From positions 193,254 to 257,253 of the forward strand of contig CAWEJK010000002.1 in NCBI GenBank assembly GCA_963809425.1: DNA of 64,000 nucleotides, in the 5' to 3' direction. Positions 21,714-56,080 of this stretch are shown in pieces. Position 1 is the stretch's first letter; each line of letters starts with the position of its first letter. The notes under the pieces are model-generated. The model was not told the origin of the DNA and searched no databases. It saw only the letters and a program-made list of their open reading frames with translations. This stretch comes from Thermoanaerobaculia bacterium (GTDB lineage Bacteria; Acidobacteriota; Thermoanaerobaculia; UBA5066). Both the position numbers and the translations under genes were made by a program.

Positions 21714-21791
21714 GATTTCTTGGAAAGGAAGAAAGAAAGAGGAAAGACTCCCTCTTGATTCTCTTTCTTTCTAAGAGGTCTTCTTCTTCGC
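21714..21791. repeat. Short core-less variant of the inverted-repeat element, overlapping the parB stop
   Basis: GATTTCTTGGAAAGGAAGAAAGAAAGAGGAAAGA / TCTCTTTCTTTCTAAGAGGTCTTCTTC. The parB TAG stop (21771-21773) lies in the R arm. Confidence 0.6.
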
Positions 21792-22676
21792 TTTCGCCTT
21801 CACGAACCGGCCCTGGGTTTCGAGGTCGATGTCCCCCGCCTCGATTCGGCGCGCGAGATCTCGGATCGCATCGAGAATCTCGTCCCTCTTGTGGAGACGC
21901 CCCTTGAGCACGACGCTCACTCTGTAGTTCCGCTCCGCGGGAGTGAAGTCGAGCGTGTACGCCTTTCTGAGTCCTCCGAGCTTCGTACCGGTCCCTCGGC
22001 GCGCGTCCTTCTTCGCCTCTCTGAGAACGTCCCGGCTCACCCCGCCGCCGCTCGCCATCGCTGCGACGGCGGCGAGCATGAGGTCCTCGTCCTTCAGGCG
22101 GCCGAGCTCGAGGAGGAAGGATCGCGAGCCGATGTCGGCGCGCCGACACTCCGTCTGGACGCGATCCGGGAGCCGCCCGATCGAGAGCGCCTCGGTGATC
22201 GTGACGCGCGATTTCCCGACGGCATCCGCGATCTGTTCGTGTGTGTATCCGTGGCGTTCCTGGAGCGCACGGTAGCCCTCGGCCTCTTCGAACGGGCTGA
22301 GATCCTTGCGCTGCAGGTTCTCGACGAGCGCGATCTCGAGCAGCTCGTTGTCCGGAACGTCCATCTCGATGCACGGAATCTCCGCGAGGCCGGCGTCCAG
22401 CGCGGCGCGGAACCGGCGCTCTCCGGAGATGATCGTGAATCGACCGTCGCCCCTCGGGCGGACGAGGATGGGCTCGAGGACGCCCTTGTCGAGGATGGAC
22501 TTCGTGAGCTCGGAGAGATCTCCCATCGCGCTCCGGGGCTGATCCGGATTCGCCTCGATGAGGTGAATGGCGATGCGGCGCCCCACCGGAAGCTCATCCG
22601 CGCGGACGAGCTGATCGACGAAGTGAGAGTCGTGACGCATACGCGAGGATTCGGGGAGGCCGCGGCGCTTAGACAC
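21771..22676 (-). CDS. parB: Chromosome partitioning protein ParB/Spo0J
   Basis: LEPILVRPRGDGRFTIISGERRFRAA and LVENLQRKDLSPFEEAEGY motifs, plus the HTH QIADAVGKSRVTITEAL. Confidence 0.92.
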   Translation of the reverse strand: MSKRRGLPESSRMRHDSHFVDQLVRADELPVGRRIAIHLIEANPDQPRSAMGDLSELTKSILDKGVLEPILVRPRGDGRFTIISGERRFRAALDAGLAEIPCIEMDVPDNELLEIALVENLQRKDLSPFEEAEGYRALQERHGYTHEQIADAVGKSRVTITEALSIGRLPDRVQTECRRADIGSRSFLLELGRLKDEDLMLAAVAAMASGGGVSRDVLREAKKDARRGTGTKLGGLRKAYTLDFTPAERNYRVSVVLKGRLHKRDEILDAIRDLARRIEAGDIDLETQGRFVKAKAKKKTS

Positions 22677-23430
22677 GGGAAAGAATCTCCTCCGTCAGGC
22701 TGTAGTACTCGAGCGCGCCCGACGAACGCGGAGCGAAGCTGAAGATGGATTCTCGATACGCGGGCGATTCCTCGAGTCGTATGGACTTCGAAATCGTCGT
22801 CTTGAAGAGCTTCTCCTTGAACACCTGATGGATCTGACCCTGGATGTCTTTTCCGAGCGTCGTGCGCTTGTCGTGGAGAGTGATAACGACGCCGAGGATC
22901 TGGAGATTCGGGTTCGGACGGCTCTTGATCTTCTCGATCGTCTCGAGCAGATCGTCCGTGCCCTCCAATGCAAAGTAGGACGACTGGATCGGAATCAGGA
23001 TGTGGGTGGAAGCGACGAGCGCGTTCACCGTGATCATGCCGAGCGTGGGCGGGGTGTCGATCAGGATGGCGTCGTACTCCCCTGACTCCCTGACGACCTG
23101 AAACTTGTCCTTCAGCCTGAAGTGACCGTCGATCTCCCCGAGCAGCTTGGACTCGACCTTCGCGAGCGAGATGCGCGCAGGCGCGACGGTGAGCTTCGGG
23201 ATCTTCGTGGGCTTGATGATGTCGAACACGGACGCGGTCGAATCCGTCAGGACGTCGTACATCGATTTCTCGACATCCTTGCGGTCGAGGAAGGACATTG
23301 TGGAATTGCCTTGCGGGTCCAGGTCGACGAGCAGGGTCCGGAGACCTTTTTGGGCGAGCGCAGCGGCGAGGTTGATCGCCGTCGTGGTTTTTCCCACGCC
23401 GCCCTTCTGATTCGCAACGGTGATGATCAT
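22669..23430 (-). CDS. parA: Chromosome partitioning ATPase ParA/Soj
   Basis: Deviant Walker A: IITVANQKGGVGKTTTAINLAAALA. Confidence 0.93.
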   Translation of the reverse strand: MIITVANQKGGVGKTTTAINLAAALAQKGLRTLLVDLDPQGNSTMSFLDRKDVEKSMYDVLTDSTASVFDIIKPTKIPKLTVAPARISLAKVESKLLGEIDGHFRLKDKFQVVRESGEYDAILIDTPPTLGMITVNALVASTHILIPIQSSYFALEGTDDLLETIEKIKSRPNPNLQILGVVITLHDKRTTLGKDIQGQIHQVFKEKLFKTTISKSIRLEESPAYRESIFSFAPRSSGALEYYSLTEEILSRV

Positions 23431-23505
23431 GCGCTGGAGTCGCGGATGATACGGAGGGTGCGCGGGCGCATCAAGGAAGAATCGCTGCGTCGCGCGCCAA
23501 GAACG

Positions 23506-23991
23506 CTACATCCGGTACTTGCCGAGTGTGTCCGGATCCGCTTCCTCGAGCCACTTTCGGAGCCGCTCGGAGTTCTGCGCCTCCGAGGTGTCTTCCCCGC
23601 TGCGGCTTTTTTCAAGAACCGATTCTTCCACGAATACCGGCGCGGCCAGCCGGAGGGCCAGAGCAATCGCATCGGAGGGCCGGCTGTCGACGAGCAATTC
23701 CCGGTTCGCGACACGGAGGTGGATCTGCGCGTAGAACGTGTTTTCCTTGAGGTTGTTGATGACGACCCTCAGGACGTCGCCATCGATCTGCGTGATGAGG
23801 TTCTTCAGAAGGTCGTGCGTCATCGGCCTGGGCGTCGTGACGCCCTCCATCTGGAGAGCGATCGCATTCGCTTCGAAGATGCCGACCCAGATCGGAAGAA
23901 AGTTCTTTTCATCCGCATCGCGCAGGATCACGACCGGCATGTTCGCGATCGGGTCCACGATAAGGGCCTTGACCTCCATCCTGACGCTCAA
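23506..23991 (-). CDS. Bifunctional nuclease domain protein (DUF151/BFN family)
   Basis: 161 aa. Contains PVVILRDADEKNFLPIWVGIFEANAI...RPMTHDLL...DSRPSDAIALALR. TTG start with AGGAGA 7 nt upstream. Confidence 0.75.
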   Translation of the reverse strand: MSVRMEVKALIVDPIANMPVVILRDADEKNFLPIWVGIFEANAIALQMEGVTTPRPMTHDLLKNLITQIDGDVLRVVINNLKENTFYAQIHLRVANRELLVDSRPSDAIALALRLAAPVFVEESVLEKSRSGEDTSEAQNSERLRKWLEEADPDTLGKYRM

Positions 23992-24011
23992 ACAGAGTTC
24001 TCCTAAGACTC

Positions 24012-24040
24012 AATCTAGGTAGTAAGGCGCTCGAATGCAA
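24012..24040 (-). promoter_or_regulatory. Candidate sigma70-type promoter for the BFN-parA-parB operon
   Basis: Coding strand reads TTGCAT-N17-TAGATT, about 20 nt upstream of the SD and TTG start. Confidence 0.35.
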
Positions 24041-24083
24041 GGCACGGTCCGCAGAGGAATGTTCTCGCCAAACGTTAACTTCT

Positions 24084-24240
24084 TTTCTTAGAATGGTTTA
24101 TAGAAGATTTTCGCGGCCCGAAATGAGCTCGGGACTCGAGTCCGAGACACCCATCCGAACGACATTCGAAGAAATCCCCTCTTCGGTCTTCTCCTCGATC
24201 TTTTCTTCGGTCTTTTTCTCGGTCCTGCCCTGTCTTCTTC
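24084..24240. repeat. Low-GC inverted-repeat element copy forming the 3-prime end of the miaB ORF
   Basis: F arm TTTCTTAGAATGGTTTATAGAAG. Core has a perfect GGACTCGAGTCC palindrome. R arm CATTCGAAGAAATCCCC (24163-24179). CT-rich tract runs to about 24240. Confidence 0.75.
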
Positions 24241-25564
24241 CGAGCAGAGAATTCGGAAATCCCCGGTCGATCCGTACGTCGACGAGCGTCCCGGGGGCGA
24301 GATCGGGTCCGTCCAGAATGTTCACGACGCGGCCGCAGCGCGATCGGCCGGAGCTGTTGCGCCTCTTGCGGTCGAGGCCTTCCACGAGCACCTCGAGCGT
24401 CTGTCCCTCGAGGGCGCGGTTCAGGCCGCGCTGGACGTCCTGCTGGAGCGCCTCGAGCCGCACGAGGCGCGAGGAGGCCTCCTGCGGCGTCACGTCGTGC
24501 TCCCACCGAAGCGCCGCCGTTTGCGGGCGCGGCGAGTACGTGAACGAGAAGACGCCGGCAAAGCGCACCTCTTCGAAGAGGGACAGAGTTTCGGCGAAGT
24601 CGGCCTCCGACTCGCCCGGGAACCCCACGATGACGTCGGTCGAAAGCGCGAGGCCGGGAACCGCCGAGCGGATCCGCCCGACGAGGTCGAGGTATTCCCC
24701 GCGCGTGTACTGGCGTTTCATGCGCCGGAGAACGGCGTCGGAGCCCGACTGCACGGGCAGGTGAAGCGCCGGAACGACCGCGGGCGTCTCGCGCATCGCG
24801 ACGACGAGCCGGTCCGTGAAATCGCGCGGGTGGGAGGTCACGAAGCGCAAGCGCCGGATTCCTGGGATGGCACCGACCGCGCGCAGGAGGTCCGCGAGAT
24901 CCTCGCCCGTCTCGGGATCGCGGAACGCGTTCACGGTCTGGCCGAGAAGCTCGATTTCGATCGCGCCGCCCTCCACCAGGGAACGCGCCTCCTCGACGAC
25001 GTCGCGGAGGCGACGGTTTCGCTCGCGCCCCCGGGTGCGGGGAACCACGCAGAACGTGCAGTTCTTGTTGCAGCCTTCGATCACCGTGATTCCCGCGCGG
25101 TACGACACCGCGTGCGCGACGGCGCCGGGCGTGTAGACGACCTCGTCCGGGTCGAAGCCGGTCTCGCAGGGCCGGTCACCCTCTTCGTCGACGCGGCGCA
25201 GCACCGACGGGAGGGCCTCGATTCGCCCGGTCCCGAGCACGAAATCGACGTGGGGAAGCCGCTCCAGCAGGCTCTCCCCTTCCTGCTGCGCCACACAGCC
25301 GCACACGCCGAGGACCGTCCCCGGGCGCTCGCGCTTCATCTTCGCGAGACGGCCGATCCGGTCGTAGACCTTCTGCTCGGCCTTGTCGCGCACCGAGCAG
25401 GTGTTGAGGAGAACGACGTCGGCGTCCTCGGCAGACGAGGCCTCGACGATTCCCTGCCGCCCGAGCAGCCCGACGAACCGCCGACCGTCGAGCACGTTCA
25501 TCTGGCAGCCCCACGTCTCCACGAAGACGCTCCGGGCCGGACCTGCTCGCGGAGGCACCTTCAC
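24098..25564 (-). CDS. miaB: tRNA-i6A37 methylthiotransferase (radical SAM, MiaB family)
   Basis: VFVETWGCQMNVLD, the radical-SAM CNKNCTFCVVP motif, and a TRAM domain. The last ~45 aa (GRTEKKTEEKIEEKTEEGISSNVV...) are read from the repeat element. Confidence 0.9.
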   Translation of the reverse strand: MKVPPRAGPARSVFVETWGCQMNVLDGRRFVGLLGRQGIVEASSAEDADVVLLNTCSVRDKAEQKVYDRIGRLAKMKRERPGTVLGVCGCVAQQEGESLLERLPHVDFVLGTGRIEALPSVLRRVDEEGDRPCETGFDPDEVVYTPGAVAHAVSYRAGITVIEGCNKNCTFCVVPRTRGRERNRRLRDVVEEARSLVEGGAIEIELLGQTVNAFRDPETGEDLADLLRAVGAIPGIRRLRFVTSHPRDFTDRLVVAMRETPAVVPALHLPVQSGSDAVLRRMKRQYTRGEYLDLVGRIRSAVPGLALSTDVIVGFPGESEADFAETLSLFEEVRFAGVFSFTYSPRPQTAALRWEHDVTPQEASSRLVRLEALQQDVQRGLNRALEGQTLEVLVEGLDRKRRNSSGRSRCGRVVNILDGPDLAPGTLVDVRIDRGFPNSLLGRRQGRTEKKTEEKIEEKTEEGISSNVVRMGVSDSSPELISGRENLL

Positions 25565-25583: not shown

Positions 25584-25697
25584 GGAGAAAGAGAAGAATC
25601 GGGGGCGAGGCCGCGAGTCGCGCCGGAACGCCGCCCAGCGACGAGACGCGCAACACCTTCTAAGAAATCCTCGGCCTCATATCTTCTATCTTGGCTC
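25584..25697. repeat. Inverted-repeat element copy with degenerate left arm, between miaB start and upstream gene stop
   Basis: GGAGAAAGAGAAGAATCGGGGG ... GC core ... CACCTTCTAAGAAATCC (25654-25670) ... ATCTTCTATC. Confidence 0.6.
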
Positions 25698-34632: not shown

Positions 34633-36248
34633 TTTGGCGTCTTTACGGGCGTCGTCTCGCGCCGGAAGAACGCCTGGACCTTCTGCTCGGCCCGCATCGT
34701 CTTCGCGGCGTCGTCGAGCTCGAGCGTGCCGCAGCGCAGAACGTTCTCGTTCTGCCAGGCGCGCACCGAGCCCGCGAGGACGAGCCTCGACGTTCGGGTC
34801 AGAAGCTTCAAGGTGTCGGACTCGGAGAAAAAGGGGCTCTTCCCGTCACCGCCGAGAAAGCCGCCTCGGCCGGGCCCCGACCCTGGCGCGTACGAGGCCT
34901 TCACGGTCCCCGCGGCGTCGAGGCGCTCCTCCCGCGCGTTCCACGACAGCGATCGGGCCGTGATCGCGCCGCGCTCGTCGTGGTAGCGCGCGGGGACGTC
35001 GGACTCGCCCGAGAAGACGGCCGTGTCGTCCCGCCCGCGCAGCGTGCCGTGCGGAGCCTTCAGCGTGGCCCTCTTCCCGTCGGTCAGCTCGACACCGTTT
35101 TCGAACGTCGCCGTCTCGATCGAGCGGCCATCCGGCAGGAAGAGGACCCGGGCGAAGCCGGCGGTGAGCGTGCGCAGCCCCGAGCCGGCGGGTCCACCGG
35201 CCCGGCCGGATTCGGCGGCGTCGAGCCGATTGGCCACGGTGAGCTCGCGGAAACCCCCGTTTTCGAATCTCCCCGAGAAATGCGGCGCCCGCGCGCGGCG
35301 CGCGCCCGCGGTGCCCGACGTGATTGACGCTCCGGCGGGGCCGAGGTCGAGCCTCGCGAGACCCGGGGCGCCCCCGTCGGCTTCGAGACCGGCCGGTTGT
35401 CCGGACGCGTCGACCCGCATCTCGAGGGCGTCGCCCTGCGCCGTGAGCGCGGCCGGCGGCTGCCCCGATTCAGGAAGGACGAGGAGGAAGGCGCCCGTCG
35501 TCGCCCGGAGCCGGCTTCCGTCGGGCTCGGCGAGCCGGGAGACGCTTTCGCTCCGGAGGATGAAGCGGTCGGTCTTCAGGACGGCGCCGCCCGTCGCGTC
35601 GAGCCTTCCGTCGCGGGAGACGACGACCCGCGGCGCGGCCAGATCCACGGCGCGCCCGCCTTCGGCCCGCCCGCCGAGGTGCGCGTCGCCGTCGAGCACG
35701 AGATTTCCGTCCCTGACGCCGAGCTTCCCGGAGGCGGCGCGGGCCACGAGCGCGCCCCGAAGCGCCGTGACGGGTCCCTCAGACGCGAGCTCGCGGCGCG
35801 CGGGATCGTAGCGGAACGAGGCGGCCGAGAGGCTCGTCTCCTCGCCCTCGATCTTCACCCCGTCGAAGACGCGGAAGGCCCGCGAGCCCTCGATCATCTC
35901 GGCGCGCGGCGCTCGCACCGAGATCGCCCGTTCGCCGGCTCCCTCCCGCGACTCGAACACGACGTCCTTGAGTCGGAAGATCTTCTCCCCCTTTTCCTCG
36001 AACCTGACGGCTTCCGTGGCGCGAACGCGATACCGGCCCTCGGAAGCCCGCGTCTCGTCGTACTGAAAGTCACGGAAGCGCATCGTGTCGCGCTTCCCTC
36101 CGGATTCCTTCAGGAGCGTTTCGGCGACCGGATCGCGGACGCCCTCCGTCCGCGCTCCGGGCTTGCGGTAGGAGAGGACGACGAGGAGCGCGAAGCCGAC
36201 GACGAGGGCGAGGATCGCCGCCCGGATCATCCGCCGAAAGCGCGTCAT
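34515..36248 (-). CDS. Membrane-anchored LptC/OstA-like periplasmic protein (extended)
   Basis: ATG 36248 (ATGA overlap with the recJ stop). TM anchor [21 protein letters not shown]. Repeated beta-rich OstA-like segments. The final ~38 aa of the listed frame are Arg-rich junk after the A5 run. Confidence 0.65.
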
Positions 36249-44240: not shown

Positions 44241-45070
44241 GGCTGCTTCCCCTTCCGCGCCGGCGCGTCGATCCCGAGCCGCGCGAGCACCGCGAGCAGA
44301 TCCTCCCACGCGTCCTTTTTCTGGGCGGGCTGGCGGAGGAGGTACGACGGGTGAAGAGTCGGCATCACGGGGATGCCTCGATAGCTCCCCCATTTGCCGC
44401 GGAGGCGCGTGATGCCCTCTTCGGTTTCCAGCAGGAAGTGCGCGGCGAATTTGCCGAGCGCGACGAGCACCTCCGGCTTCACGAGATCGATCTGCCTTTC
44501 GAGGTAGCCGCGGCAGGCGGCGATCTCGTCGGGCTCCGGATTCCGGTTCTCGGGCGGACGGCACTTCAGGACGTTCGCGATGTAGACGGACGAGCGCGGC
44601 AGCCCCATGCCGTCCTCGATCATCCGCGTGAGAAGCTGGCCGGCGCGCCCTACGAACGGGACGCCCTGCGCGTCCTCGTCGGCCCCCGGAGCCTCGCCGA
44701 TGAACATGATCCTGGCGCTGGACGAGCCGTCCGCGAACACCGTCTGCTTGCGGGTTTTGCACAGCCGGCATGTGACGCAGGAAGAGACTTCTTTTGCTAA
44801 AGACTGCAGCTCCAGGGCCGAAGCGCGTCGAGCGGAAGGCGAAGCGGCGGGAGACGGCGCATTTTCTTCGAATGGTGAAGAGAGATCGGGAAGCGCCGGC
44901 GCCGCAGGGGACGCGCCTGCGGGCTTGCCCGCCGCCCTATTAACCTTCAAAGAAATCTTCTCTTTCTCTTCGAACCTTGCATCAAGGTAAAGCTCCGCCA
45001 CGCCGAGGTCGCGATAGTAGGCGAGGGTTTCCCGAAGCGCGTCGGAGCCGGGGGGCCGCGCGGGGGTCAC
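44237..45070 (-). CDS. Uracil-DNA glycosylase, family 4, with N-terminal extension containing a repeat element
   Basis: CRLCKTRKQTVFADGS...IMFIGEAPGADEDAQGVPFVGRAGQLL...HPSYLLR. Confidence 0.88.
   Translation of the reverse strand: MTPARPPGSDALRETLAYYRDLGVAELYLDARFEEKEKISLKVNRAAGKPAGASPAAPALPDLSSPFEENAPSPAASPSARRASALELQSLAKEVSSCVTCRLCKTRKQTVFADGSSSARIMFIGEAPGADEDAQGVPFVGRAGQLLTRMIEDGMGLPRSSVYIANVLKCRPPENRNPEPDEIAACRGYLERQIDLVKPEVLVALGKFAAHFLLETEEGITRLRGKWGSYRGIPVMPTLHPSYLLRQPAQKKDAWEDLLAVLARLGIDAPARKGKQP
44861..44972. repeat. Low-GC inverted-repeat element copy, in frame inside the udg N-terminal region
   Basis: F arm ATTTTCTTCGAATGGTGAAGAGAGATCGGG (44861-44890). GC core. R arm CCCTATTAACCTTCAAAGAAATCTTCTCTTTCTCTTCG (44935-44972). 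Confidence 0.8.
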
Positions 45071-55490: not shown

Positions 55491-56080
55491 GGTTCTTCTT
55501 CTATCTTTTCTTCGACATTCTGCTCTGGGAACAGCTCGGTCTGCGCCGTGTTCGTCTCGACGCCGTAGAGCGCGTCGAGGTCCTCCGGGCGCGGGAGGTC
55601 CTTCAGGTCGGCCAGGCCGAAGTGAACGAGGAATTCCTTCGTCGTCTTGTAGAGGAACGGGGTCCCGACGACCTCCTTGCGGCCGGCCGTCGTGATGAGC
55701 TTCTTGTCGAGGAGGGTGCGCAGCGAGGACGCCGAGTTCACGCCGCGGAGCTCCGCGATCTCGGGCGCCGTGACCGGCTGCCTGTAGGCCACGATCGACA
55801 GCACCTCGAGGCTCGCGATCGAGAGCTTGTTCCTTCCTTCGAGCCCGAGCAGGCTGCGAACCGGCAGGTCGAATTCGTTGCGCGACACGAGGCGCGCGCC
55901 GCCGGCGACGCGGTCCACGCGCACGCCCCGCCCCTCGGCCTCGCAGGCCTTCTCGAGCGCGTCGAGCGCGACCTCGACCTCCGCCTTCGTGATTTCCGCG
56001 GCCTCGGCGAGCCGCTCGACGGTCGCGGGCTTGCCGGACGCGAAGAGCAGGGCCTCGAGGAGCGCGACGTGCGTCGTCAC
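55487..56080 (-). CDS. scpB: Segregation and condensation protein B
   Basis: GTG 56080 (GTGA overlap with the scpA stop). Contains LEALLFASGKPATVERLAE, LSIASLEVLSIVAYRQPVTAPEI and GTPFLYKTTKEFL. Confidence 0.9.
   Translation of the reverse strand: MTTHVALLEALLFASGKPATVERLAEAAEITKAEVEVALDALEKACEAEGRGVRVDRVAGGARLVSRNEFDLPVRSLLGLEGRNKLSIASLEVLSIVAYRQPVTAPEIAELRGVNSASSLRTLLDKKLITTAGRKEVVGTPFLYKTTKEFLVHFGLADLKDLPRPEDLDALYGVETNTAQTELFPEQNVEEKIEEEP

What the first reader, a model, noticed from the sequence alone, without database searches (positions are those of the whole stretch)
24098..24240. miaB reads ~45 codons into a repeat element before stopping in its far arm
After the TRAM domain (…VDVRIDRGFPNSLLGRR) the ORF continues through the CT/GA tract, the R arm, the core (with a perfect GGACTCGAGTCC palindrome) and ends at a TAA in the F arm. 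The resulting tail is GRTEKKTEEKIEEKTEEGISSNVVRMGVSDSSPELISGRENLL. In the gene frame the consensus arm codon TAG is TCG (GATTTCTTCGAATG versus GATTTCTTAGAAGG). Similar Glu/Lys-rich peptides encoded by arms occur at the ScpB C-terminus (EQNVEEKIEEEP, 55491-55530), in UDG (RFEEKEKISLKVN) and in the LptC-like protein ([15 protein letters not shown], 35966-36004).
Basis: seen in the sequence. Interest (0 to 1): 0.6.

Follow-up and report, generated by a model that had tools for sequence, protein, structure and literature searches.

The report
MiaB tail read from repeat element
The tRNA-modifying enzyme MiaB of this uncultured acidobacterium has about 43 extra C-terminal residues because its reading frame runs into a neighbouring genus-specific DNA repeat. 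The tail drifts like junk DNA and looks like a tolerated by-product, as already described for small repeats in other bacteria.

Summary
Observation confirmed. miaB (24098-25564, minus strand, 488 aa) continues about 43 codons past the end of the MiaB family model. It reads a 12-nt purine tandem repeat, an arm (GATTTCTTCGAATG), a GC-rich core, and stops at a TAA at the inner edge of the far arm.

Interpretation supported.
- MiaB ends 2-27 residues after its NSL motif in 14 genomes of two other families and 5 genomes of four sister genera. None has the element at this locus.
- Inside the genus the element sits at the same miaB/nuclease-gene spacer. In one clade the stop lies before or inside the near arm (ending ISSNG*). 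The other clade reads through to the far-arm block.
- A relative with 88% identity has the consensus TAG arm in frame, and MiaB ends exactly there.
- The tail is not a selected peptide. Differences from relatives fall evenly on the codon positions. The translated core is as diverged (43% identity) as the untranslated spacer (41%), while the arms keep 82-86%. AlphaFold confidence is below 50, and no homologue of the tail was found.

The closest precedent is Coxiella QMITE2-EnhC. The repeat family itself, which this scan has met before on this and other genomes, remains unexplained. Here it is restricted to one genus.

The parts
24230..25564 (-). MiaB proper (residues 1-445): UPF0004, radical SAM and TRAM domains
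   Evidence: Pfam domains at residues 13-111, 160-329 and 384-443. TIGR01574 scores 437.9 bits (cut-off 355.3) over residues 13-442. PDB 7mjz aligns to residues 10-436. AlphaFold places the last TRAM strand at 440-444.
24101..24229 (-). C-terminal extension (residues 446-488) encoded by the repeat element and its purine tract
   Evidence: Translation. pLDDT below 50 for residues 448-488. No Pfam hit and no homologue at E<=0.01. GC3 is 0.64 against 0.87 in the body.
24183..24224 (-). 12-nt purine-rich tandem repeat (about 3.5 copies; ACCGAAGAAAAG-like on the gene strand), encoding TEKK/TEEK/IEEK/TEEG
   Evidence: Tandem Repeats Finder: period 12, 3.5 copies, 80% matches. Its length varies among six species (62, 26, 50, 38, 32, 32 nt).
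24163..24176 (-). Near arm GATTTCTTCGAATG, read as G-I-S-S-N; TCG stands where the family consensus has TAG
   Evidence: 18.9 bits. It is 86% conserved among six species while the core is 43%.
24113..24162 (-). Variable GC-rich core, translated; holds the chance palindrome GGACTCGAGTCC (24132-24143)
   Evidence: Cores of 159 elements are unrelated to each other.
24074..24112 (-). Far-arm block GAAAATCTTCTATAAACCATTCTAAGAAAAGAAGTTAAC, with TAA in all three frames (24100-24098 is the miaB stop; also 24090-24088 and 24077-24075); the arm 12-mer is 24084-24095
   Evidence: 19.2 bits. Stops in all three frames in 14 of 16 species. 82% pairwise identity.
23999..24040 (-). Conserved promoter-like TTGCAT (24040-24035), 17 nt, TAGATT (24017-24012), and AGGAGA (24004-23999) in front of the downstream gene. 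It is not part of the element. It marks the element's limit.
   Evidence: Conserved across the genus and in sister genera; 76% identity. Its function is inferred. The consensus scan did not list it.
23506..23991 (-). Downstream bifunctional-nuclease-domain gene, syntenic with miaB throughout the order
   Evidence: PF02577, E 1.3e-41. Synteny.

Best explanation
The last ~43 residues of this MiaB are a by-product, not a working part of the enzyme. A genus-specific repeat lies between miaB and the next gene. It consists of two inward-facing arms, consensus RRR-ATTTCTTAGAAGG-TGAAGAGGG, around an arbitrary GC-rich core.

Shown:
- In one clade of the genus, miaB stops before or inside the near arm.
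- In the other clade, which includes this genome, that stop is missing and the frame runs on.
- It can run on for two reasons. The purine tract has no T and the core is GC-rich, so stops are rare. This locus's near arm has TCG or TTG where the consensus TAG would stop it.
- It ends in the AT-rich far-arm block, which carries TAA in all three frames.
- The tail changes at the rate of untranslated spacer, with no codon-position pattern and many length changes.
- Two lineages have lost the long tail. One has a TAG arm and the other a deletion.

Inferred:
- The stop was lost once, in the ancestor of the read-through clade.
- The tail is translated, floppy and harmless to MiaB.
- What selection preserves here is the pair of arms as a DNA or RNA word. 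Its reader is unknown, but is more likely a sequence-specific protein than arm-to-arm base pairing.
For: ORF and anatomy.

Native end of MiaB. Outgroup MiaB proteins end 2-27 residues after the NSL motif, and none has an arm nearby.

Same locus across the genus. In the tree, 8 species with the stop before or in the near arm are sister to 14 species (11 read-through, 2 cut by contig ends, 1 deletion), with 98/97 support.

Independent metagenome proteins show the same classes...ISSNG*, read-through, and short tails. In L039 the arm's own TAG is the stop.

Neutral drift:
- G000 versus G005: the tail has 25 differences in 117 nt, 7/9/9 by codon position. The body is 94% identical at positions 1+2 and 75% at four-fold sites.
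- G000 versus L040: 9 differences in 81 nt, 8 of them non-synonymous.
- Six species: core 43%, spacer 41%, purine tract 48%, against near arm 86% and far block 82%.

Disorder: pLDDT below 50 for residues 448-488.

Stops: off-frames are open to the far block in about half the species. The far block has stops in three frames in 14 of 16 species.

Generality: 33 called genes stop in or at a paired element, 6 read through at least 80% of one, 11 use an arm's TAG as stop and 5 an arm's TAA.
Against: All 11 complete read-through species in the genome sample stay open as far as an AT-rich arm: the far block, an earlier far arm, or in one species a second element's near arm. The purine-tract lengths of six species differ only by multiples of 3. 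Both facts could hint at selection for an open frame. The 12-nt repeat unit and shared ancestry explain them more simply.

The polarity of the change (stop lost rather than gained) rests on outgroup comparison, because the two clades are sisters.

Gene calls used for the census come from a home-made caller.
Confidence: 0.8

Rival explanations
1. Reading through the element is itself selected. Ribosomes crossing the element would keep it unfolded or unbound, or prevent premature termination. The three-frame stop block would release them just before the promoter of the nuclease/parAB genes.
For: All 11 complete species of the read-through clade are open as far as an arm. Purine-tract lengths in six species are all 2 mod 3. 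The far block has stops in all three frames in 14 of 16 species. Where the arm is TTAG, it is read in a frame without a stop (G010, G017).
Against: L039 stops at the near arm's TAG and G004 has a deletion with a 7-residue tail, so short forms persist. Half the genus stops before or in the near arm. The three-frame stop block is equally conserved where it is never reached by ribosomes (clade I). Off-frames are open about half the time from composition alone. The length steps follow a 12-nt repeat unit. The downstream gene has its own conserved promoter-like site.
Confidence: 0.08
2. The tail is a functional MiaB appendage, for example a charged Glu/Lys helix that helps bind tRNA or a partner.
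For: The Glu/Lys-rich start of the tail recurs in several species. AlphaFold draws a short helix at 448-455.
Against: That helix has pLDDT below 50. Tail sequence and length are not conserved, and substitutions are spread over all codon positions. The tail is absent from all MiaB outside the genus. The Glu/Lys bias follows directly from the purine tract that flanks arms everywhere in the genome (74% purine).
Confidence: 0.04
3. A mobile MITE recently inserted into the 3' end of miaB and displaced its stop.
For: The element has inverted arms, is about 100 nt long and is multicopy. The spacer is 58-179 nt in sister genera (10-70 nt in the other families) and longer, roughly 110-300 nt, where the element is present.
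Against: The element is at the same locus in both clades of the genus, so it is old. The interiors of 159 copies share no similarity. There are no target-site duplications of 2-8 bp. No Y1 transposase was found. In the sister clade the stop precedes the element, so the insertion and the loss of the stop were separate events.
Confidence: 0.05
4. Artefact: an assembly or frameshift error hides the true stop.
For: The genome is a draft of 13 contigs and 88.5% completeness.
Against: Independent assemblies carry the same frame and the same stop: L040 at 91% identity, and L006 of G015. G005 keeps the same frame as far as its contig reaches. Ten species read into the element.
Confidence: 0.02

Closest known systems
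Coxiella burnetii QMITE2 and EnhC, with QMITE1/2 overlaps of gene 3' ends (PMC5896051)
   Same: An indel links a gene to a neighbouring small inverted-repeat element. The element supplies the last 33 residues and the stop follows directly. Another strain has a stop just before the same element. Several housekeeping genes overlap elements by 1-50 bp at their 3' ends.
   Different: QMITEs are conventional MITEs: the copies are alike along their length, have direct repeats and are linked to IS1111. Here only the arms are shared, the interiors are unrelated, there is no target duplication, and the state is conserved across many species rather than differing between strains.
Rickettsia palindromic elements (RPE), reviewed in PMC10969869
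   Same: A multicopy palindromic repeat is translated in frame as part of housekeeping proteins and is tolerated. In this genome arms also lie inside ORFs, for example UDG.
   Different: RPEs are about 150 bp, have conserved sequence encoding a conserved peptide, and are inserted internally. Here the element-encoded peptide is conserved only over the 4-5 residues of an arm (ISSK, ISLK, FLEG), and the miaB case is a terminal extension.
REP doublets, BIMEs and REPINs with RAYT transposases
   Same: Short extragenic palindromic words, often in inverted pairs just after genes, hundreds per genome.
   Different: No Y1/RAYT gene in this genome. About 59% of arms fall in called ORFs. Partner arms show no covariation. 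The miaB copy folds no better than shuffles (z +0.78).
DNA uptake sequences (Neisseria DUS, Pasteurellaceae USS; from my own knowledge)
   Same: A lineage-specific 12-nt word, hugely over-represented on both strands, kept at orthologous places while the flanks drift, found inside genes in tolerated frames, and partly in inverted pairs.
   Different: Density is about 1 per 7 kb rather than about 1 per kb. Orientation is almost strictly convergent (156 to 8) at 30-250 nt spacing. No link to competence has been tested.

Membership tests
MiaB (tRNA i6A37 methylthiotransferase, TIGR01574) | Scores above the curated equivalog cut-off and better than the RimO and MtaB models | tested here: met
   437.9 bits against a cut-off of 355.3. 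MtaB scores 288 and RimO 249, both below their cut-offs. The best PDB match is MiaB 7mjz, E 1.9e-84.
MiaB (tRNA i6A37 methylthiotransferase, TIGR01574) | UPF0004 + radical SAM + TRAM architecture with the CxxxCxxC cluster motif and the N-terminal cysteines | tested here: met
   Pfam domains. C165, C169, C172, C56 and C90 are invariant in 51 relatives. C20 is seen in WGCQMN.
MiaB (tRNA i6A37 methylthiotransferase, TIGR01574) | Methylthiolation of i6A37 in tRNA | not testable with these tools
   Needs tRNA nucleoside analysis.
MITE | Terminal inverted repeats | tested here: met
   164 convergent arm pairs; neighbouring arms are +/- in 156 cases and -/+ in 8.
MITE | Copies homologous along their interior (descent from a master copy) | tested here: not met
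   All-against-all BLAST of 159 cores gives only nested self-overlaps and a few 15-32 nt matches.
MITE | Target-site duplication | tested here: not met
   Direct repeats of 2-8 bp at offsets 0-11 are no more frequent than in shuffled pairings. The left flank is 74% purine and the right 26%.
MITE | Presence/absence polymorphism between close genomes | tested here: inconclusive
   At the miaB locus the element is present in both clades of the genus and absent from sister genera. G004 has a decayed or deleted copy. No other locus was surveyed.
REP/REPIN-RAYT | A Y1 (RAYT) transposase gene in the genome | tested here: not met
   PF01797: no match in G000 (88.5% complete). The positive controls matched in 6 of 14 genomes.
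REP/REPIN-RAYT | The unit or doublet forms a stable hairpin kept by compensatory change | tested here: not met
   Partner arms match no better than random partners (17.38 against 17.24 of 32 positions, z 0.8). The miaB copy has z +0.78. Cores fold only slightly better than shuffles (mean z -0.92).
RPE-like in-frame elements | The element encodes a conserved peptide module in many host proteins | tested here: not met
   Only the arm's 4-5 residues recur, and cores are unrelated.
DNA uptake sequence | A lineage-specific short word, strongly over-represented on both strands | tested here: met
   45-138 exact copies in 11 of 11 genomes of the genus. At most 2 copies in 140 other genomes of the class. 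At most 9 copies at up to 1 mismatch in five sister-genus genomes, against 276 here.
DNA uptake sequence | Biased uptake of DNA carrying the word by the competence machinery | not testable with these tools
   Needs uptake assays, and there is no cultured host.
Intrinsic terminator | A GC-rich hairpin followed by a T run, placed after genes | tested here: not met
   No terminator-like site in 23900-24300. Intergenic elements are spread over tandem, divergent and convergent spacers (42/12/11) about as the spacers themselves are, and 78 of 164 lie inside ORFs.

The most novel reading that the evidence does not exclude
The arms are the recognition word of an undescribed, genus-specific system that reads two inward-facing sites 30-250 nt apart. 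This would be a protein reading the sequence, not a hairpin, since partner arms do not co-vary. The word is kept by selection or by a molecular drive while everything between and around it drifts. Genes such as miaB can slide into and out of these sites freely, because the arms themselves end translation: two of three frames at a consensus arm, and all three at this locus's far block.
Probability: 0.4. Interest if true: 0.65.

Novelty: new member of a known kind. Interest (0 to 1): 0.3.

Why it matters
For annotation: MiaB proteins of this genus carry element-derived tails of 9-45 residues that should not be read as a new domain. More than 30 genes in this genome end in or at such elements.

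For evolution: the locus gives a clean natural series. The stop lies before the arm, at the arm's TAG, in the arm's extension, or at the far arm. This shows how AT-rich repeat arms set gene ends in a 69% GC genome where stop codons are otherwise rare.

For the element: translating a segment imposed no detectable constraint on it, while the arms stayed conserved. This sharpens the open question of what reads the arms.

Tried and rejected
- Exact look-up of the window's MiaB in public assemblies: not on record.
- Rfam: no family at 23400-24700.
- Hairpin reading of this copy: rejected. The RNA fold has z +0.78, and the near arm pairs with GAAAATCT rather than with the far arm.
- The palindrome GGACTCGAGTCC as a feature: rejected as chance and not conserved.
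- Invertible-segment idea (core flipped between species): no support. The three alignable core pairs all align forward.
- Terminator and promoter roles: no orientation preference among spacer types and no terminator-like site.
- Conventional MITE and REP/RAYT membership: failed on interior homology, target duplication and transposase.
- Selection for an open frame: considered. Off-frame openness, the 12-nt repeat unit and two short-tailed lineages make it unnecessary.
- 'TCG as a repair for miaB': rejected. TCG is ancestral at this locus, including where it is untranslated.

Full report
**What is there.** The minus-strand ORF 24098..25564 encodes a 488-residue protein. It is MiaB. Pfam finds UPF0004 (13-111), Radical_SAM (160-329) and TRAM (384-443). 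The solved Bacteroides MiaB (7mjz, 457 aa) aligns to residues 10-436, with 11 chain residues left. Residues about 446-488 therefore lie outside the family.

On the gene strand they are encoded by four stretches:
- a purine tract whose centre is a 12-nt tandem repeat (24224-24183);
- the arm GATTTCTTCGAATG (24176-24163);
- a GC-rich core;
- the first bases of an AT-rich block, GAAAATCTTCTATAAACCATTCTAAGAAAAGAAGTTAAC (24112-24074). Its first TAA (24100-24098) is the stop.

The TAA sits 2 nt inside the far 12-mer, not in it.

**The repeat family.** The arm word is far above chance. The 14-mer with up to 2 mismatches occurs 12 times in the window against 0.08 expected. The 12-mer with up to 1 mismatch occurs 276 times in the 3.52 Mb, 68.9% GC genome. 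A weight matrix finds 519 arms against 52 in the reversed-sequence control. The consensus is a purine run, ATTTCTTAGAAGG, then (T/G)GAAGAGGG. Neighbouring arms face each other 156 times and face away 8 times, giving 164 pairs with 31-251 nt between the 12-mers. The miaB arms are weak members (18.9 and 19.2 bits). Stronger copies at the same locus in relatives show the copy is genuine.

**Native end of MiaB.**
- In 14 genomes of the two other sampled families of the order, MiaB ends 2-9 residues after the (P/E/D)(N/H)SL motif. The bifunctional-nuclease gene (PF02577) starts 10-70 nt later, with no arm. A fifteenth genome, G036, instead reads on in frame into that nuclease gene (see the side observations).
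- In 5 genomes of the four sister genera of the same family, MiaB ends 6-27 residues after the motif. The spacer is 58-179 nt, again without arms.
- Among 120 database relatives with 66-91% identity, several named Thermoanaerobaculia by NCBI, tails vary from 4 to 45 residues. Arm-type peptides appear only in the closest ones.
- The tail alone finds nothing at E<=0.01 among 5.8 billion proteins.

**History at the locus.** Every sampled member of the genus has the element between miaB and the conserved promoter-like TTGCAT-17-TAGATT of the nuclease gene. A MiaB tree splits the genus in two, with 98/97 support for the second clade.
- In the first clade (8 species), miaB stops before the near arm, or reads the arm and stops in its inner extension (ATT TCT TCG AAT GGT TGA/TAA, giving ...ISSNG*). 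About ten metagenome clusters show the same ending.
- In the second clade (14 species), 11 complete genes read through the purine tract, arm and core, and stop in an AT-rich arm further on, mostly the far-arm block. Two are cut by contig ends. G004 has lost most of the element and ends ...GQVGSS.

With arm-free outgroups, the simplest reading is a single loss of the stop in the ancestor of the second clade. This polarity is inferred.

The near arm is TCG in both clades, including where it is untranslated. So TCG was not a repair made for miaB, and 15% of intergenic arms have C at that position. The effect of that base is nevertheless shown directly. In contig L039 (MiaB 88% identical) the arm is GGATTGCTTAGAAGG in the miaB frame, and the protein ends ...EIRIA at that TAG. 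G010 and G017 have TTAG arms read in another frame.

**Is the tail a functional peptide? No sign of it.**
- Against G005, the body is 94% identical at codon positions 1+2 and 75% at four-fold sites. The tail has 25 differences in 117 nt, split 7/9/9 over the codon positions.
- Against L040 (91% identical protein), 9 differences in 81 nt include 8 non-synonymous ones.
- Among six species of the read-through clade, mean pairwise identity is 43% for the translated core and 48% for the purine tract. The untranslated spacer has 41%. The near arm has 86%, the far block 82%, and the promoter-to-ATG stretch 76%.
- Tail GC3 is 0.64 against 0.87 in the body.
- AlphaFold2 on 51 relatives gives mean pLDDT 81.7, but below 50 for residues 448-488.

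**Why the frame stays open, and where it stops.** The purine tract lacks T and the core is GC-rich. In ten species the two off-frames contain only 7 and 10 stops in total and are open in about half the species. The far-arm block has stops in all three frames in 14 of 16 species, including the clade where ribosomes never reach it. Any frame that enters is therefore ended there.

Purine-tract lengths in six species (62, 26, 50, 38, 32, 32) differ by multiples of 3. This fits slippage of the 12-nt unit as well as it fits frame selection. L039 and G004 show that short tails persist.

**Genome-wide census.** This uses my own codon-usage gene caller: 3008 genes, 89% coding. It is crude and tends to over-extend 5' ends.
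- 33 genes stop in or at a paired element.
- 6 cover at least 80% of an element, as miaB does.
- 11 use an arm's TAG as stop, including parB in this window (21771-22676).
- 5 use an arm's TAA from the other side.
- Inside ORFs, arms lying in the frame where the consensus would be a stop carry C or T at the central base in 48 of 52 and 45 of 48 cases. Elsewhere A holds about 70%. The resulting peptides are ISSK, ISLK, ISSN, FLEG and FLRK, with Glu/Lys/Arg-rich upstream flanks.

Of its three examples, though, only UDG is arm-encoded.

**What the element is not.**
- Cores of 159 copies are unrelated to one another.
- There is no 2-8 bp target duplication, and the flanks are mirror-symmetric (74% purine on the left, 26% on the right).
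- No Y1/RAYT transposase was found.
- Partner arms match each other no better than random partners do (z 0.8).
- The miaB copy folds no better than shuffles (z +0.78). Cores fold only slightly better than shuffles (mean z -0.92 against -0.03).
- There is no Rfam hit and no terminator-like site.
- Intergenic copies follow the numbers of tandem, divergent and convergent spacers, and 78 of 164 pairs lie inside ORFs.
- The exact word is abundant in all 24 sampled genomes of the genus. It is at background level in 140 other genomes of the class, and in five sister-genus genomes even at one mismatch.

This argues for a genus-specific word read as sequence. What reads it is unknown.

**Comparison with the known.** The closest precedent for the finding itself is Coxiella burnetii. 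There an indel links enhC to a QMITE2 that supplies 33 C-terminal residues in one strain, while another strain has a stop before the element. Several housekeeping genes also overlap QMITEs at their 3' ends (PMC5896051). Rickettsia palindromic elements are the classic in-frame case (review PMC10969869). The miaB tail is a new member of that known kind. The element family differs from MITEs, REPs and RPEs in the features listed above.

**Earlier notes of this scan.** Earlier notes on this genome and on other genomes already describe the paired word and leave its function open. Their 'class-wide' distribution was not reproduced here.

**Limits.** The genome is a draft, 88.5% complete. The species compared are related, so counts across them are not independent.

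Noticed in passing
window 21767-21778 (arm) and parB 21771-22676 (-): ParB ends at the TAG of a repeat arm (GACCTCTTAGAAAGAA), with a partner arm at 21716-21727. It is one of 11 genes in the genome whose stop is an arm's TAG.
   Followed up: partly
window 25656-25667 (-): A strong arm (28.7 bits) sits in the spacer just upstream of the miaB start, without a clear partner. miaB is thus flanked by arms on both sides.
   Followed up: no
L030 (G036:C3:255246-257283): In one genome of another family of the order, miaB has no stop and reads in frame into the bifunctional-nuclease gene (615-aa ORF). This is either a possible natural MiaB-BFN fusion or an assembly error.
   Followed up: no
L043 (G123, sister genus), just after the miaB stop: A canonical terminator-like hairpin (GGGGCCGCCAGGCCCC followed by TTTTTCTTTCT) lies where the genus of the window has the repeat element. 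The nuclease gene's TAGATT promoter-like box is shared.
   Followed up: no
window 24012-24040 (-): TTGCAT-17 nt-TAGATT plus AGGAGA before the bifunctional-nuclease gene is conserved across the genus, and the TAGATT box is also kept in three sister genera. It is a likely promoter that predates the element.
   Followed up: partly
genome C9:273181-274305 (-), C11:141925-144543 (-), C13:109892-110614 (-), C13:144409-145023 (+), C9:214404-214691 (-): Five further called genes cover at least 80% of a paired element and stop at its far arm. By eye they look like a multihaem-cytochrome-like protein, a large alpha-2-macroglobulin-like protein, a FabD-like protein, a small protein ending ...QVFTF, and an ACT-domain protein. 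The last looks like arms laid over a real domain rather than an extension.
   Followed up: partly
window 44863-44955 (-), UDG-like ORF: A complete arm pair lies in frame inside the N-terminal part of a uracil-DNA-glycosylase-like ORF (EKISLKVN ... SSPFEEN). Both arms carry the stop-avoiding central base.
   Followed up: partly
miaB locus in relatives (L001-L037): The distance between the arm 12-mers stays at 66-68 nt in most species of both clades, although the core sequence is no longer alignable. The purine tract outside varies from 26 to 62 nt.
   Followed up: partly
G166 (sister genus), 8 sites: TTTCTTAGAAGT occurs 8 times, 7 on one strand, in a genome otherwise lacking the arm word. It may be part of some other multicopy sequence.
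   Followed up: no
G006:C15 and G007:C6 miaB loci: miaB matches are split over several frames, with TGA stops inside in G006. These are broken genes or indel errors in the assemblies.
   Followed up: no
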